This document shows, piece after piece, positions 8,003 to 56,000 of a stretch of 64,000 nucleotides of DNA. Each line of letters begins with the position of its first letter. The stretch's first letter is position 1. The stretch is from Ophelia neglecta. Lineage: Eukaryota. Position numbers: made by a program. The stretch is from the NCBI GenBank assembly GCA_965285935.1, contig OZ260665.1, forward strand, positions 21,328,001 through 21,392,000. Reading direction: 5' to 3'.

Positions 8003-11000
8003 CCACCCAAGCCCCACCCCGACCCTCCTACAAATGACGCATCTCCGCACCTTCGTTTTAATCAAAATTAGTTGAAACCTGTTTGCCACGATTGCTATGG
8101 GGAGCACATTGGAACGATCTTTCAGAAATTAATGTTTTAAAAAAATGTGCTTTGTTATAATATTTAAGAACAAACTTGGCTTGATGCCTGTTACCTTCGA
8201 TATCATTTTCCATTTATGTTAACTACAGCGTGGCTATCACATAATATACAAGTAAACAGGAGCCCTTCTGTTAAACCTCGTCATATAGCATTCATATAAA
8301 AATTATCATGAACCTTGTAAAACATCCAATTGATATCGTATCTCGTTACTAATTGCCATATAAACTATTCTCTTCATACCACTCATGGTTATCTTGTGCC
8401 CTTTAACAGACACATTAACTAAACACATTTTCTCCATGACTGATAGTTATGCCGAACAGGTGAAATAAGAAATGTAATGGCAGCTAAGGCATTTGTCAAC
8501 CCGTCATTTAAATTGAATTGAATTAATCAATTTGATCATTAAATTATACGACTTACATAGCAATGTCCAAGCTGTTTCGCCTGACGCCGGATTAATATAA
8601 AATAAAGTGAATGTGTAGATGAACTGAGTAATATGTTGTCAGAATGTCAAGGACATATGATTACATAGTTCATATGCTTGTATTTCTTATTTAATCCTCA
8701 ACCGTGCGCATACTGCTCCATATCAATATTTTCAAAACTAACATATTAAAGAGTCATTTATTATATCTGCAAGATTGAAAGAAGCCTTTACAAATCATTA
8801 CCTTTGTACCAACATATTTTGATATGTATAAGAGAGGCTTTAGTTTTTAATAAACCAGGTGACGACCAATTGATTGGCTGTGCAAATATAGTTCGTGGTA
8901 ACCCGCGTTAGGGCCCTCAGATACTACTCCAACTGTAGTTTGTGAAAACTCGCGATGCGGCCCAAACTTGCTCTTGCCTAACCATGGTCTTTCAACTATA
9001 AGTCATACTACACATTCTTTACGGCACTGTGAATCTCCTCAACCTGTACGTCCTATCAATCCCGTGTTACGGCCCTATAATGCTTCTCCAACTATAGTTT
9101 ACAATACTCGGGTTCACAGTTAGCGGCAGAAAGTTGTCGTTTAGAATGTCTGAGCTGGTTTTCGATATAAGTTCGCTGTGACAATCGTCCGACAGTTCCA
9201 ATGAATTCTCGGGCGACGCCTCATCCATTGTGTAGTCTTTCCTCGTGTTGATATTGCTGTTGTATTTTCTCTGATATGACGTCGACTCAACATAGGACAA
9301 ATCATCAAATTCCCTCGAATCTAACGTGTCAAACACGTCCAGATGGTCATCGAACTCGGATTCTAGTCGCTCGTCTAGTTCCTTTTCGTAAACGCCGCAA
9401 TATTCCGTCGATTCGGACTCTCGGGAGGAGCATTGCAGTGTATTCAACTGGTCAAAGGTATTTCGTAATTTGACGGACGAGCGGTCAGCCTTGTGACACG
9501 ACGACTTAGATAACCTAGTTGCACAGCATAGGGGACAGTCCGTCACTAGGCGTGATACATCAGACGCCTTTGACATATTCTGGGTATTTGACTGAGAAAA
9601 ACGACGATTCTTATTACTGACCACACGCGAGTACAAGTCGTGCTCGATAGCGTCAAAGAAGCTGGGCGGTATGAGTGTCTTCCTCCGTGGCAAAGCGGCC
9701 AATATAGCCTTGGAGTCCATAGAACTGGCAATGTCAACCAAACCGTTTTGATTGACGTCAATCTGGGAGTCTTTGTGCAGAAAATCATATTCACGAGAAG
9801 TGGAAGGCGCCGAGTGTCTGTTTGATAATTTTTCTGGCATGCGTTTTGAAACTTTACTACATTTACAAATATTTCGAGTACCCATTCTCATCTTAACTGG
9901 CGTAGATTTAGTCTGTGAGTGATTGTTCACAGGCTTGGCCAGATCTTGTTCACACGTCCTTGCAATGACCTTAGTAGCATTTGAAGGTCTAGCCACATTT
10001 GACACCTTGACACCAACTGGCCCTTGTATATGATTGAAAGCTGGCGAAAGATTGATATTACAAGATTGATACGAAGAATGTCTTCTATTGGCTTTGGTAA
10101 GCCCACTTGATGGCACCTCCAGCACAGAGGTGGAGAGTGGTCTGGTGGCTTTGTCGGCCTGATAACTACGATGCAGTTTCTCGGCGACTACATCGATCTG
10201 ACTGACGAGCGTCCTCAAGTCACCCATCACAGTACCAAGTTCACCAATGACGGTTTCCAGATCACCTACCACCTGTTTCATCTGTTTCCTCACCTTCTTA
10301 TTCCCATTACTCGTCGTATTGATACTCTGCTCCACTCTTCCGTTATTCCCAGATGATCCAAACGGTAAGAACCCATTTGAATCCATTGAGATAGGATTCT
10401 TTATTCTTTGGCCTGCCATAAGCTGGGAAGGGAATGGCTGAGCATAGCATTTCTGGGTGCCCCCCGTTCTTACTGAGGACCTTTGATTAAAATCACTAAA
10501 CCCGCAGTGTTTAACCATGGCTGGAGGCCTCCTGCCGTCGTGGGCACGTTGTATATTGTCCGCCATGACGTTACGTTTGGACTGATGGCTGTTTTGTGCC
10601 ATATTTAAATTAAGGGTATGGCCCCTATTATTTATAACCAGGAATTAACTTGACCCATTGTGCTGTGACTCCATGACTGAATTTACTGCCAGGAATGGCA
10701 ACAGTCTTCTATTTAATCATTAGTTATGCGGAAACCGTGATTTATGTTAAAAACTCACGGTATACCGCGATAACTGACGATAGGGATATGGCGTCCCAGG
10801 GATATTTAAAGGATTCATATTTCGAGCATGAATCCACTTTCCGAAATTAATTCTATAATCATAGAAATCTTAAACTTGATAAATCTTAATGGCTTTCAAA
10901 ACGATACCGGGCCTCGTTTTGCAATTGTCAGAGTATCTTGCATCGGAAACAACATCAAAACAACTCTCATATTTCCGGGGCTTTCGAAGGTAAAGTAGAA

Positions 11001-53000: not shown

Positions 53001-56000
53001 CGCTTAAACGATCATCCGAGATTTCCGCTGAATGTTCGCCAGAAGAGTACTCCATAGTGTAGCGTTTCCACGTGTTAATATTCTTGTCGTATTTGCTCAA
53101 ATATGGTGCGTTTTCGAATGCATGCTTGTTATCGAAATCCCGCGAATTGAAAGTGTCGTACACATCGAGATGATCATCAAACTCCAGTTCTAATGTCTCG
53201 TCCAGCTCGCGTTCGTAGACGCCGCTATATTCCACATCCGGCGACTCGGACTCCGGTGAGCACCGTTGTTTAGTATTTACCTTGTTGCTAGATTCTCGTG
53301 ATCTCACCGACGAACGGTCAGCCGTATCGTACCAGGAAGAGTCGGAGAACCCAGTCGCACAGAAGAGCGGGCAGTCCGTCTTGAGACGCGATAACTCCGA
53401 GGATTTTGACACTTTCTGTACATTTTTCTGAGAGGAACAACGATTCTTGTTACGCACAATACGAGTATAGATATCGTGGTCAATGGCGTCAAAGAAGCTA
53501 GGCGGTATGAGAACCTCCCGCTTCGGCAGAGCGTCTAGTATCGCTTTCGTGTCCATAGGACTGGCAATGTCCACAAAACCGTTCTGATTAACGTCCAACC
53601 CGGTGTCTTTGTATAGAAAATCATATTCCCGGGAGGTGGAAGGCACTGAGTGTCTGTTTGATAATTTATCCGCACCGCGTTTAGACAATTTGCTACATTT
53701 GGATTCACCAATAGGACGTATTCTCATTCTCACCGGCGTAGCTTCTTCTTGTGACTTTATCTGATCCATGGAAACCACGTGACCTTTCTCAAATGAGCTT
53801 TCCGTGACCTTAGTATTATTTTGTGTCGTAACGGTCGGTTTCAACATGGTCGGTGGTCCTTCGACACATGGCGGTTCTTGTATCGGTTTAAAACCTGTTG
53901 GATGATCTATTTCACAAAATTGAGACATGGAATTTCTCAGTTTTTGGTTGGTATATCCGCTGGATGTCGCCTCTAGAGCAGAGGCCGAGAGGCGTCGTTT
54001 AGTGTCTGTGTCATCCGGGTAGTTGCGATCTAGCCTTTCGGTGACTATGTCAATCTGAGAGACAAGTGATTTTAAGTCACCCATCACAGTTCTAAGCTCC
54101 CCGATGACGGTTTCTAGATCGCCAACCACCTGCTTCATCTGTTTTTTGACCACCTGCTTCCCTTTGCCCGTGGTCTTTTCCACGTGTTCCCCGTTACCGT
54201 TCTGGTCCATGCCCACATTTACAGATCCACTCGAGTCGGGGGATATGGCGTTACTTTTCCTTTTACCTTCAGCTAAACGGCACGGAGATTGCCAATCATT
54301 CTGTCGCTTCCCGTCGATGACCTGGCCAGAGGACGTCTGATTATGATTACGTTTGTAATCCGCCAGCCGTGTCGGAGAAGGTTGAATACGGTGCTGATTA
54401 CAGTCGACATGCCGTGCCGGGGATGGTAGATTACGGTGGCTACTGCTGCTGTGTTTAGATATGGCCGGAGACCATCTTCCTTCGTGAGCTCGTTGTATAT
54501 TGTCAGATAATATGTTTCGAGCCGAATGGCAGCTGCTTCTTCTCACGGAGGTAGGGACTCGTGAGCCGCTGCTGCCAGTGCTGGCTCGACTCTTGTCTGA
54601 TCCGTTATCAGACTTCTCCATGATGGAGCTGCCTGCCGTATAAGGCAAAATATTATTCTATCTACGAATACAGGTTTCAATATCAGTTACAATATTAATC
54701 CAACGATACATGATACTCCAGAGAGGAATGACGTCGTGCCAGCATTTAAAGCTGTCCGCATTTGACATGTAAGTATTTTCCACAATTTCCCTCAACAAGG
54801 AGCTATAGTCTTTTTTGTTATCATAACAACTTGGAGAAGTATGGAGACGCTTGTGTTCGACCCTTGTGCAGCTAGAAATTGCGTTTTATAATCAATGACA
54901 ATTAGAGCATTTGCCCTGGCACTCCAATTGCTGGATGATGACTAGATTTTTGTATATCGATGAGGGAGCACAAGTAGAAATGTAACGTACACGGTGAACA
55001 CGATCCATCGTAGATGAAAACACTATGCATCGTCCTTCACAGATATCTAGCTCCCGACTGCCTGCCCGGAGGCGACCATACCGAGATTCGAAGCCCACTC
55101 ACATCTGCCAGGAACAAGTGGCGTTTAAGAGAAATCCGGAGAGTTTTATCCTCAAGCGTTCAATAATAGCATCTCTGGCCCATCAACGTGTCTGGCAAAT
55201 CTGAAAATACAAAACCATCCGTAAAGGTAATCGATAACTTCAATGTGTAATAGACAATAATATCCTTTGCATTGGCCACCAATATCCGAGGGGAGAAGGG
55301 GGGAGGGGGGAGGGGCTATTACAAAATGCACGGGAATTTGATTTCAGGCACCTAGCCCGTCGGTATAAAGGTAATCCTTGAAACCAGCCTCCTTACACCA
55401 GATTATTGCCTCTAACTACAAGACATGGAAAGACACGAATGCCCCGTTTTGAATTAGACGGATCGGCGTTCACAGCATATACATTTTATCATGTGCTCAA
55501 CGGGCATGCGTAATACTCTCGCCTATAACGATAGCACTCCAAATCACGTGGTAATATTGACATCTAGGTCGATTTTCGTGGTATGTGTAGTGCACCTGCT
55601 TAATTGCTGGGGTTTACCCACATGCGGGCTCGGCAGGCGATGATAAGTACGACATTGATTCAGGGTTAGCCACAATTGGCAACAAAATAGTATGTGATGA
55701 CCGAAAGAATTTCACTCCCTTTGATTTTCCAGCTGAAGGACTATCAGGTTTTCAGTAGTTCTGTTTGTCGCGATCGGACATAGAATACAACGATAAATGT
55801 GTTGTTCACGAACGAATACATTATTAATTTCCTACGCTTTGTTTTAGACTGTTTAAAGTAACCCACAATTTTAGTTTTTCCTGAAATAAAATACCGCACC
55901 AACAGAAAAAGATTTTTTTTTATAATAAACCAAAGCCTACGACATACGGACGCAGTGATTCGACACACTATCACCTGACTCCGAACATCAAGGTAAGCAC

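What the first reader, a model, noticed from the sequence alone, without database searches (positions are those of the whole stretch)
9067..54621. Tandem pair of invertebrate Largen/InSyn1-like genes with apparently unnamed conserved C-terminal motifs
Seen: two colinear single-coding-exon ORFs on the same strand, 44 kb apart. Both have a heptad coiled coil and well-conserved islands in disordered sequence (DNIQRAHxGR; KLSNRHSxPSTSREYDFL..D...DVNQNG.VDIAS.MD.KAIL.ALP....LIPPSFFDAI.HD.Y.R.V.NKNR; SRL.TDCPL.CAT; GVYE.ELDE.LE.EFDDHLDV; NINTxKxYTM; SSDILNDNFLP.TVNP..VNYSWR). Knowledge (recalled): the coiled coil matches the N-terminus shared by vertebrate INSYN1 (inhibitory postsynapse, dystrophin complex) and PRR16/Largen (translation/cell size). 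The vertebrate RVRF..KV.YH motif is not visible here. Inference: an invertebrate branch of this little-studied family that has duplicated independently and has its own linear-motif set.
Basis: partly seen in the sequence, partly recalled or inferred. Interest (0 to 1): 0.75.

Follow-up and report, generated by a model that had tools for sequence, protein, structure and literature searches.

The report
Two INSYN1/Largen-related adaptor genes
Two neighbouring intron-free genes in an invertebrate-like genome encode mostly disordered proteins that share one short helix with the vertebrate synapse protein INSYN1 and the cell-size protein Largen, and otherwise carry a different, widely conserved but unnamed set of short motifs.

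Summary
Two minus-strand ORFs (A 9067-10602, 511 aa; B 52894-54621, 575 aa) are 51% identical, far longer than chance allows and under purifying selection (dN/dS about 0.26). All six quoted motif islands are present in both.

Neither protein scores against Pfam DUF4589. A profile built from them still reaches five DUF4589 proteins (E 1.6e-4 to 5.1e-4 over 1.84 billion proteins). Profile-profile comparison gives 97.4% probability, E 9e-12, over the 46-residue helix only. The proline-rich, RVRF and ILRKS blocks of the DUF4589 group are absent.

The C-terminal motifs are not private to this pair. The acidic Y-x-G-x-Y-E block is in 48 of 65 sequences examined and in none of the five DUF4589 proteins. 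The N-T-W, SDILNDN and NYSWR blocks recur in the same order. No Pfam family covers them. Only the N-terminal and middle blocks are lineage-specific.

AlphaFold predicts one confident long helix, one short acidic helix and disorder elsewhere.

Best reading: adaptor proteins with an INSYN1-type docking helix and their own motif set. Taxon and function are untested.

The parts
9067..10602 (-). Gene A: uninterrupted coding ORF, 511 aa plus stop
52894..54621 (-). Gene B: uninterrupted coding ORF, 575 aa from the ATG at 54621, plus stop. The mechanical ORF extends to a TTG at 54648.
   Evidence: The N-terminus of P0001 aligns with this ATG.
10174..10293 (-). A, residues 104-143: heptad helix shared with DUF4589 (INSYN1/Largen-type) proteins
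54022..54165 (-). B, residues 153-200: the same helix as predicted by AlphaFold (pLDDT 91-97); motif core is residues 158-197
10531..10560 (-). A, residues 15-24: N-terminal DNIQRAHxGR island (found only in A, B and P0001)
54475..54504 (-). B, residues 40-49: N-terminal DNIQRAHxGR island
9604..9831 (-). A, residues 258-333: lineage-specific middle block KLSNRHS...NKNR, including the FFAT-like core SFFDAIE (314-320; 9643-9663)
53440..53667 (-). B, residues 319-394: the same middle block, including SFFDAID (375-381; 53479-53499). AlphaFold helices 358-364 and 374/376-389/392 at pLDDT 58-70.
9517..9555 (-). A, residues 350-362: SRL.TDCPL.CAT island
53353..53391 (-). B, residues 411-423: SRL.TDCPL.CAT island
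9334..9405 (-). A, residues 400-423: family-wide acidic block (Y-x-G-x-Y-E ... L-E)
53161..53232 (-). B, residues 464-487: family-wide acidic block; AlphaFold helix 468-482, pLDDT about 82
9226..9255 (-). A, residues 450-459: NINT.K.YTM island, with Arg where the family has Trp
53053..53082 (-). B, residues 514-523: NINTW..YTM island (Trp shared by 35 of 39 aligned relatives)
9085..9156 (-). A, residues 483-506: SSDILNDN ... VNYSWR terminal islands
52912..52983 (-). B, residues 547-570: SSDILNDN ... VNYSWR terminal islands

Best explanation
A and B are two old paralogous protein-coding genes, each with an uninterrupted coding ORF. They encode mostly disordered adaptor-type proteins of a broad family that has no Pfam model. 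The family architecture is one roughly 46-residue amphipathic heptad helix, followed far downstream by an ordered series of short conserved islands: an acidic Y-x-G-x-Y-E...L-E helix, N-T-W, SDILNDN and, in a subset, a terminal NYSWR. The helix is homologous to the N-terminal helix of vertebrate-type DUF4589 proteins (INSYN1, PRR16/Largen). Nothing else in the protein is. Shown: the genes are real and constrained, the helix homology holds, the family-wide order of motifs holds, and disorder is predicted outside the helices. Inferred: in mouse InSyn1 the first 60 residues, which hold the predicted coiled coil, are needed for synaptic localisation and for association with alpha1-syntrophin and beta-dystrobrevin (PMC6944460, passages). 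By analogy, the helix here would dock the protein on a coiled-coil partner, possibly the dystrophin-complex counterparts, or make it self-associate. The C-terminal islands would then recruit other partners as linear motifs. The N-terminal and middle blocks, found only in A, B and P0001, would add lineage-specific contacts.
For: Real genes: stop-free runs of 587 and 525 codons against a maximum of 197 in 30 simulations. A and B are 51% identical, E 3e-166. Nei-Gojobori dN 0.33, dS 1.28, ratio about 0.26 over 510 codons; 0.12 in the helix, 0.17 in the middle block, 0.20 in the C-terminal part and 0.50 in the linker 201-318. Family: 63 representatives at E up to 1e-3, 23 at up to 1e-10 and 4 at up to 1e-30 among 1.84 billion, most matching in two stretches, helix and C-terminus. 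By pattern, 34 of 65 sequences carry both the helix and the acidic block, always in that order. Shuffled versions match the helix pattern 0 of 13000 times and the acidic pattern 4 of 13000 times. In the 18-sequence alignment, which was not chosen by those patterns, G181, L186, I190, D191, V193, Y465, Y469, E470 and E478 of B are invariant. Helix homology to DUF4589 proteins: (hhalign 97.4%, E 9.2e-12, 46 columns). No cross-reaction with coiled coils of solved structures: 0 PDB hits at E up to 10. Structure: helix 153-200 at pLDDT 91-97, helix 468-482 at about 82, most other residues below 50. Role of the helix in InSyn1: PMC6944460, passages.
Against: Neither protein reaches any Pfam family, DUF4589 included, even at E up to 10. 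The link to DUF4589 rests on 46 columns of an amphipathic helix, a kind of sequence where convergence is easier than in a globular domain. The five DUF4589 hits sit near the bottom of the hit list (E 1.6e-4 to 5.1e-4). No expression, localisation or partner evidence exists for any non-DUF4589 member in what I could search. The functional transfer from InSyn1 is by analogy only, and Largen, which has the same helix, is described with a different role (cell-size regulator; abstract of PMC9252882 as listed). dS is close to saturation (pS 0.61), so the ratios are rough. The taxon of the window and of all hits is unknown; no call returned a source's name for any hit.
Confidence: 0.6

Rival explanations
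1. The helix likeness to INSYN1/Largen is convergent or generic. On this reading the family is unrelated to DUF4589 proteins and merely has a similar heptad helix.
For: Only 46 columns align. There is no direct Pfam hit. The DUF4589 hits have E 1.6e-4 to 5.1e-4, near the threshold. None of the other DUF4589 blocks is present.
Against: The shared pattern is specific and is not just hydrophobic spacing: D-L-E, L-G-x-L-K, V..Q-I-D..T in register. hhalign gives 97.4%, E 9.2e-12. The profile hits 0 PDB chains at E up to 10 although PDB holds many coiled coils. Among the 65 sequences no classical coiled-coil Pfam family reaches E 0.01. P0048 used as a phmmer query within the hit set recovers 45 of the other 62 hits at E up to 1e-3 for that small set. 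The Atlas feature search independently lists Largen and INSYN1 clusters.
Confidence: 0.12
2. A and B are full co-orthologues of INSYN1/PRR16. On this reading the ancestral gene had this architecture, and vertebrates replaced the C-terminal motif set with the proline-rich, RVRF and ILRKS blocks. The alternative would be a helix module shared by two otherwise separate families.
For: Both groups share the same order (helix near the N-terminus, long disordered tail with islands), similar sizes, and no other homologue class among the hits. The Atlas's best cluster is named 'Protein Largen', is 425 aa long and has no common Pfam family.
Against: No column outside the helix aligns. The Atlas's three best clusters are mainly chordate and lack DUF4589. 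This hints that chordates may hold both kinds side by side, which would make them paralogous lineages rather than one replaced by the other. No taxonomy or synteny could be examined.
Confidence: 0.2
3. The middle block found only in A, B and P0001 carries a working FFAT-type motif (S-F-F-D-A-I-E/D). If so, these proteins would additionally be held at the endoplasmic reticulum by VAP-type MSP-domain proteins.
For: The canonical core is E-F-F-D-A-x-E, and Ser/Thr at position 4 defines phospho-FFAT (PMC7610837, passages). A matches 6 of 7 core positions, B has Asp at position 7, and P0001 has Thr at position 4. The block is constrained (ratio 0.17).
Against: The 12 residues upstream are basic or neutral in both (AALPRRKTLIPP; DALPKREVLIPP), not an acidic tract. 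AlphaFold puts the motif in a helix at pLDDT 58-70, whereas FFAT peptides bind extended (the latter point is recalled). The motif was noticed after the fact among many islands. The review itself says predicted motifs need testing.
Confidence: 0.1
4. The ORFs are not functional host genes. They would instead be pseudogenes, or remnants of a mobile element or virus.
For: There is no transcript evidence. There is no Pfam domain.
Against: Both ORFs are intact over more than 500 codons despite dS about 1.3, with dN/dS about 0.26. There are no flanking repeats and no similarity outside the ORFs. 0 of 118 intergenic frames and no flank frame hits a transposase, reverse transcriptase or viral family. 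The family is broad, with 63 representatives.
Confidence: 0.02

Closest known systems
INSYN1 (inhibitory synaptic factor 1, C15orf59), Pfam PF15252 DUF4589
   Same: It has an N-terminal amphipathic heptad helix of about 46 residues with the same register of conserved residues. It is otherwise a protein without known domains (PMC6944460, passages).
   Different: A and B are about twice as long, and the helix starts at residue 99-153 instead of about 17. They get no score against the Pfam model. The proline-rich block, the RVRF...YHG block and the C-terminal ILRKS..TTV end of the DUF4589 group are absent. The acidic, NTW, SDILNDN and NYSWR blocks of A and B are absent from all five DUF4589 hits.
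PRR16 / Largen
   Same: It belongs to the same Pfam family as INSYN1 (my recollection). The Atlas's best feature-based cluster for B is named 'Protein Largen' (0.91).
   Different: The differences are the same as for INSYN1. Which of the five DUF4589 hits is a Largen and which an INSYN1 could not be established, because no source names were obtainable. Its described role as a cell-size regulator comes only from the abstract of PMC9252882 as listed.
P0001 (545 aa, unnamed protein from an ENA contig of 77 kb)
   Same: It is an end-to-end relative with every island, including the N-terminal and middle blocks. It is 78% identical to B over the last 121 residues.
   Different: Its middle block is more diverged: Thr at position 4 of the FFAT-like core, and a two-residue gap where A and B have DVNQNG. 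It has six extra residues after the shared end. Only one such protein was found, not a pair.
FFAT-motif proteins that bind VAP
   Same: The core S-F-F-D-A-I-E/D is close to E-F-F-D-A-x-E.
   Different: There is no acidic flank, and the motif is predicted helical. This is a resemblance only.

Membership tests
Pfam PF15252 DUF4589 (INSYN1 / PRR16-Largen) | Score at or above the Pfam gathering cut-off (27 bits) | tested here: not met
   hmmscan of A and B at E up to 10 gave no DUF4589 row at all. The five true members among the hits score 57 to 216 bits.
Pfam PF15252 DUF4589 (INSYN1 / PRR16-Largen) | N-terminal heptad helix, which lies mostly ahead of the Pfam envelope | tested here: met
   hhalign 97.4%, E 9.2e-12, 46 columns. 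The profile search reaches 5 DUF4589 proteins at E 1.6e-4 to 5.1e-4. The residue pattern is shared in register.
Pfam PF15252 DUF4589 (INSYN1 / PRR16-Largen) | Proline-rich block, RVRF...YHG block and C-terminal ILRKS..TTV end, as conserved among the five DUF4589 hits | tested here: not met
   RVRF and ILRKS occur in 0 of the 2 window proteins, against 4 of 5 and 5 of 5 DUF4589 hits. Nothing outside the helix aligns. The blocks are seen.
Pfam PF15252 DUF4589 (INSYN1 / PRR16-Largen) | Association with dystrophin-complex proteins through the helix region (InSyn1) | not testable with these tools
   Known for mouse InSyn1 only (PMC6944460, passages).
Unnamed helix plus acidic-block family (defined here from the hits) | Heptad helix with the D-L-E / L-G-x-L / Q-I-D pattern | tested here: met
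   The pattern is in A, B and 47 of the 63 hits (49 of 65). In B, G181, L186, I190, D191 and V193 are invariant in the 18-sequence alignment.
Unnamed helix plus acidic-block family (defined here from the hits) | Acidic block Y-x-G-x-Y-E ... L-E downstream of the helix | tested here: met
   It is in A, B and 46 of the 63 hits (48 of 65). Both helix and block are present in 34 of 65, always helix first. Y465, Y469, E470 and E478 are invariant in 18 sequences.
Unnamed helix plus acidic-block family (defined here from the hits) | N-T-W island | tested here: inconclusive
   B has it. A has Arg in place of Trp. It is present in 32 of 65.
Unnamed helix plus acidic-block family (defined here from the hits) | SDILNDN island and terminal NYSWR | tested here: met
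   Both are in A and B. SDILNDN is in 25 of 65 and NYSWR in 11 of 65.
FFAT-motif (VAP-binding) proteins | Seven-residue core E-F-F-D-A-x-E | tested here: met
   A has S-F-F-D-A-I-E (6 of 7) and B has S-F-F-D-A-I-D. The definition is from PMC7610837, passages.
FFAT-motif (VAP-binding) proteins | Acidic tract directly upstream of the core | tested here: not met
   The twelve upstream residues hold 0 acidic and 3 basic residues in A, and 2 acidic and 2 basic in B.

The most novel reading that the evidence does not exclude
This family is the widespread, possibly ancestral, form of the INSYN1/Largen lineage. It would combine a dystrophin-complex docking helix with a conserved four-part C-terminal motif code (acidic Y-x-G-x-Y-E helix, N-T-W, SDILNDN, NYSWR) that nobody has described. 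Vertebrate INSYN1 and Largen would be derived forms that kept only the helix. In the lineage of this window the protein would also have gained an FFAT-like motif, which would link the membrane-cytoskeleton scaffold to the endoplasmic reticulum.
Probability: 0.12. Interest if true: 0.7.

Novelty: new variant of a known kind. Interest (0 to 1): 0.45.

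Why it matters
INSYN1 and Largen are little-studied proteins whose only recognised structural feature is the N-terminal helix. If the helix is the sole element shared with a much broader family, that helix becomes the evolutionary and functional core. That agrees with the deletion mapping in mouse InSyn1 (PMC6944460, passages). 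It would also give a set of naturally varied helices for working out what the helix binds. The C-terminal islands are short and extremely conserved (Y469, E470 and E478 of B are invariant in the 18-sequence alignment, which was not chosen by pattern). They lie in predicted disorder and are covered by no Pfam model. That makes them candidate new linear motifs whose partners are unknown. For annotation, the practical point is that these genes cannot be found with Pfam DUF4589, because the model leaves out most of the helix.

Tried and rejected
- Direct Pfam scan of A and B at E up to 10: only a chance-level Invasin_D4 row (E 0.066-0.12).
- PDB sequence search with B and with the 18-sequence profile: 0 hits each at E up to 10.
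- Word-indexed protein search, three times (B whole; alignment A3; B residues 455-575): only P0001 each time, with no name, so no source names for relatives were obtained.
- The listing of cluster members for ten hits: not sent, database switched off.
- Second Atlas search on the C-terminal part of B and on P0003: both failed because the Atlas was closed to new sequences.
- Rfam at gathering thresholds: 0 matches. tRNA scan: 0 genes.
- A third copy or fragments of the gene in the window: tblastn of all 65 family proteins gave 175 hits, 0 of them outside the two ORFs.
- Mobile-element or other genes between the paralogues: 0 of 118 stop-to-stop frames of at least 60 aa hit Pfam at E up to 0.01. 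Exons shorter than 60 codons would be missed.
- Fold search of the models: not run, because the models are one helix plus low-confidence coil and the tool warns such matches are meaningless.
- Genome-contig scan: not used, because it holds only bacteria and archaea.
- Rooting the A/B/P0001 triplet: only the helix and C-terminal columns have outgroups. Three-taxon site patterns are mosaic (AB|P 84, BP|A 80, AP|B 32 overall). They can reflect branch lengths only, so I do not claim gene conversion.
- Literature: five searches gave no paper on members outside vertebrates, and 'DUF4589' occurs in 0 papers.

Full report
**1. Observation**

The window has no N. It has 38% G+C and a CpG observed/expected ratio of 0.83, so it looks like a non-vertebrate eukaryote. 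Nothing in it was taken for human.

Only two ORFs of at least 200 aa exist, both on the minus strand: A at 9067..10602 (511 aa) and B at 52894..54648. Their stop-free runs are 587 and 525 codons. The next longest run in the window is 179, and the longest in 30 second-order Markov simulations was 197.

A and B are 51% identical over 545 positions, E 3e-166. DNA similarity between the loci is confined to the ORFs, and there is no third copy: 175 tblastn hits, 0 outside the two ORFs.

**2. Are they real, constrained genes?**

- Nei-Gojobori estimates over 510 aligned codons give dS 1.28 and dN 0.33, a ratio of about 0.26.
- By region the ratio is 0.12 in the helix, 0.17 in the middle block, 0.20 in the C-terminal part and 0.50 in the linker.
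- dS is near saturation, so these ratios are rough.
- The contrast between islands and linkers fits conserved motifs in a fast-evolving disordered chain.
- Both ATGs have A at -3 and G at +4, and in-frame stops lie 14 and 12 codons upstream.
- P0001, the one close relative found, aligns from its first residue with B's ATG and runs to the shared end. The coding regions therefore need no introns.
- There is no transcript evidence.

**3. Relatives**

The word-indexed search found only P0001 (545 aa, unnamed, 48% identical to B) in all three attempts.

The exhaustive HMMER search used a profile of A, B and P0001 against 1.84 billion representatives. It found 63 proteins at E up to 1e-3, 23 at up to 1e-10 and 4 at up to 1e-30. 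Re-scoring them locally shows that most match in two separate stretches, the helix (profile 118-175) and the C-terminal part (profile about 417-542).

Aligned to the profile, the C-terminal islands recur widely. Patterns written after seeing that alignment give these counts over the 65 sequences (2 window proteins plus 63 hits):

| Pattern | Sequences with it (of 65) |
|---|---|
| Helix | 49 |
| Y-x-G-x-Y-E | 42 |
| Y-E...L-E acidic block | 48 |
| N-T-W | 32 |
| SDILNDN | 25 |
| NYSWR | 11 |
| DNIQRAH | 3 (A, B, P0001) |
| NRHS.PS | 3 (A, B, P0001) |
| FFAT-like core | 3 (A, B, P0001) |

Co-occurrence:
- 34 of 65 carry both the helix and the acidic block, always helix first.
- 15 have the helix only. 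These include the five DUF4589 proteins and six fragments under 200 aa.
- 14 have the acidic block only.
- 2 have neither.
- Shuffled versions of the same proteins match the helix pattern 0 of 13000 times and the acidic pattern 4 of 13000 times.

In the 18-sequence alignment A3 (A, B and 16 hits picked from P0001-P0031 for matching both stretches, not by pattern), B's G181, L186, I190, D191, V193, Y465, Y469, E470 and E478 are invariant. Column shares in the 44-sequence alignment are given. That set was chosen with the acidic pattern, so the invariance of Y469, E470 and E478 there is partly by construction.

**4. Link to INSYN1/Largen**

Neither protein gives a DUF4589 row in Pfam, even at E up to 10.

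Scanning all 65 sequences, DUF4589 is found in 5: P0048, P0052, P0054, P0055 and P0056, at 57-216 bits. Five other families appear once each at weak E-values (0.0012-0.0044).

In those five proteins the Pfam envelope starts at residue 44-53, while the window profile matches residues of about 14-130. The Pfam model therefore leaves out most of the helix, which explains the failed direct scan.

The helix alignment shows a shared, specific residue pattern in register. hhalign of the 18 family members against the five DUF4589 proteins gives probability 97.4%, E 9.2e-12, over 46 columns (B 153-198 with P0048 16-61), and nothing else aligns.

The DUF4589 group's own blocks (a proline-rich stretch, RVRF...YHG, and a C-terminal ILRKS..TTV) are absent from A and B.

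As a control, the family profile finds no PDB chain at E up to 10, so it is not a general coiled-coil detector.

The Atlas feature search, a lead only, lists a 'Protein Largen' cluster first (0.91; 425 aa; Chordata; no common Pfam family) and an 'Inhibitory synaptic factor 1' cluster (DUF4589 on 93% of members) at 0.83.

**5. Structure**

AlphaFold2 was run with the 18-sequence and the 44-sequence alignments, and the two runs agree:
- One long helix at 153/154-200, pLDDT 91-97.
- A short helix over the acidic block at 468-482, pLDDT about 82.
- Two weaker helices in the middle block, pLDDT 58-70.
- Low confidence elsewhere: 417 and 364 of 575 residues below pLDDT 50.

The helix reads as six heptads with hydrophobic residues at fixed positions and a glycine at the same heptad position in three consecutive turns. 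I did not run a fold search, because a lone helix in a low-confidence model gives meaningless matches.

**6. The duplication**

In a neighbour-joining tree on the helix and C-terminal columns, built from A, B, P0001 and 10 other hits (P0002-P0008, P0010, P0013, P0015; no DUF4589 protein), A, B and P0001 form one clade apart from the other ten. Within that clade, B pairs with P0001 in 200 of 200 bootstraps.

Three-taxon site patterns are mosaic. In the middle block A and B agree against P0001 (26 sites against 11). In the C-terminal part B and P0001 agree against A (25 against 3). Overall the counts are 84, 80 and 32.

Without an outgroup for the middle block, this can be read as branch lengths alone, with A and P0001 on long branches and B on a short one.

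My conclusions are:
- The duplication probably happened within this family's lineage, separately from the INSYN1/Largen split. That point rests on the very different levels of similarity, not on the tree.
- It is old.
- It may predate the split from P0001's source.

**7. Surroundings**

- The 42 kb between the genes holds no Pfam-recognisable frame: 0 of 118 stop-to-stop frames of at least 60 aa.
- It holds no Rfam family and no tRNA.
- At the left end of the window, on the plus strand, three colinear pieces match successive parts of the PLP-dependent decarboxylase domain PF00282:
  - 899-1033: E 4.5e-10, 39 bits, above the cut-off, model positions 221-255.
  - 1-393: weak, model positions 198-234.
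  - 2285-2617: E 0.0018, model positions 344-375 of 375.
- These pieces were searched one by one.
- They look like the 3' part of a neighbouring multi-exon gene that converges on gene A.

**8. How it most likely works**

Shown: two constrained paralogues; a helix homologous to that of DUF4589 proteins; a family-wide ordered set of short islands in predicted disorder.

Inferred: an adaptor that docks or self-associates through the helix and recruits partners through the islands. The only experimental anchor is mouse InSyn1. There, the first 60 residues with the predicted coiled coil are required for localisation at inhibitory synapses and for association with alpha1-syntrophin and beta-dystrobrevin (PMC6944460; I read passages found by term search, and the abstract start in the listing). 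Largen is described as a cell-size regulator (PMC9252882; abstract start in the listings only; a term search for domain words found nothing useful). The helix therefore does not dictate one cellular role.

A further lead is the core S-F-F-D-A-I-E/D in the lineage-specific middle block. It resembles the FFAT core E-F-F-D-A-x-E, and P0001 has Thr at position 4, as in phospho-FFAT (PMC7610837, passages). The upstream flank is basic or neutral rather than acidic, and the motif is predicted helical. I rate this reading at about 0.1.

**9. Comparison, novelty and limits**

These proteins work like INSYN1/Largen only in having the same helix at the head of a disordered chain. They are not members of Pfam DUF4589 as defined: the score test failed and three of the group's four conserved blocks are absent.

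They belong to a broader family that no Pfam-A model covers. No paper in the held library treats it. Searches: 'Largen/PRR16/INSYN1', 'DUF4589' with 0 papers, product names including '-like' forms, 'C15orf59 + PRR16', and the gene names with 'invertebrate' and 'ortholog'. Automatic annotation may already call such genes 'Largen-like', as the Atlas cluster name suggests. I could not see source names.

I file this as a new variant of a known kind, of moderate interest.

Left open:
- The taxon of the window and of every hit.
- Whether chordates hold both architectures.
- Expression.
- Any binding partner.

The closed collections (metagenome and viral contigs), the Atlas for new sequences, cluster member lists and paper supplements stayed unchecked.

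Noticed in passing
window 1-2617, + strand (pieces at about 185-325, 917-1021 and 2393-2488): Three colinear exon-like pieces match successive parts of the PLP-dependent (group II) decarboxylase domain PF00282. 899-1033 gives E 4.5e-10, 39.2 bits, above the cut-off, at model positions 221-255. 1-393 gives E 0.037 at model positions 198-234. 2285-2617 gives E 0.0018 at model positions 344-375 of 375. This is probably the 3' part of a DDC/HDC/TDC-like gene that starts before the window and converges on gene A. The pieces were searched separately and not joined.
   Followed up: partly
window 43487-43770; 14095-14323; 48036-48220; 5885-6049: Short tandem arrays show up as off-diagonal self-matches (77-88% identity; offsets of about 87, 75, 71 and 81 bases) in the self-BLAST of the window. 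Apart from these and two short dispersed matches, the 42-kb interval has almost no repeated DNA.
   Followed up: no
window 52001-56000: The 4-kb block around gene B has the highest G+C (0.449 against 0.35-0.41 elsewhere) and CpG observed/expected of 1.02. The block around gene A is 0.411 and 0.97. The coding ORFs stand out compositionally from their surroundings.
   Followed up: no
B residues 161-188 (window 54058-54141, - strand) and the matching part of A: The helix contains an internal seven-residue repeat with glycine at the same heptad position in three consecutive heptads (VVG / VIG / VMG). A glycine stripe is unusual for a coiled coil. G181 of B is kept in 39 of 42 aligned relatives.
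   Followed up: partly
hits P0049 (511 aa) and P0051 (439 aa), not in the window: These two representatives carry the helix in the middle of the protein (about residues 255-352 and 153-288) and match neither of my two patterns. P0048 finds them more strongly than it finds the window's family (E 2e-10 and 2e-12 within the hit set). P0051 has a sub-threshold DUF4589 row (E 0.087). They may be a third architecture built on the same helix.
   Followed up: no
A, B and P0001 alignment, columns 346-430 versus 491-611: The agreement is mosaic. A and B agree against P0001 in the middle block (26 sites against 11), while B and P0001 agree against A in the C-terminal part (25 against 3). This could be unequal rates or exchange between the neighbouring paralogues. 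It could not be resolved without outgroups for the middle block.
   Followed up: partly
A residue 454 (within window 9226-9255, - strand): Gene A has Arg where B and 35 of 39 aligned relatives have the Trp of the N-T-W island. This suggests A has lost or changed that one motif while keeping the others.
   Followed up: no
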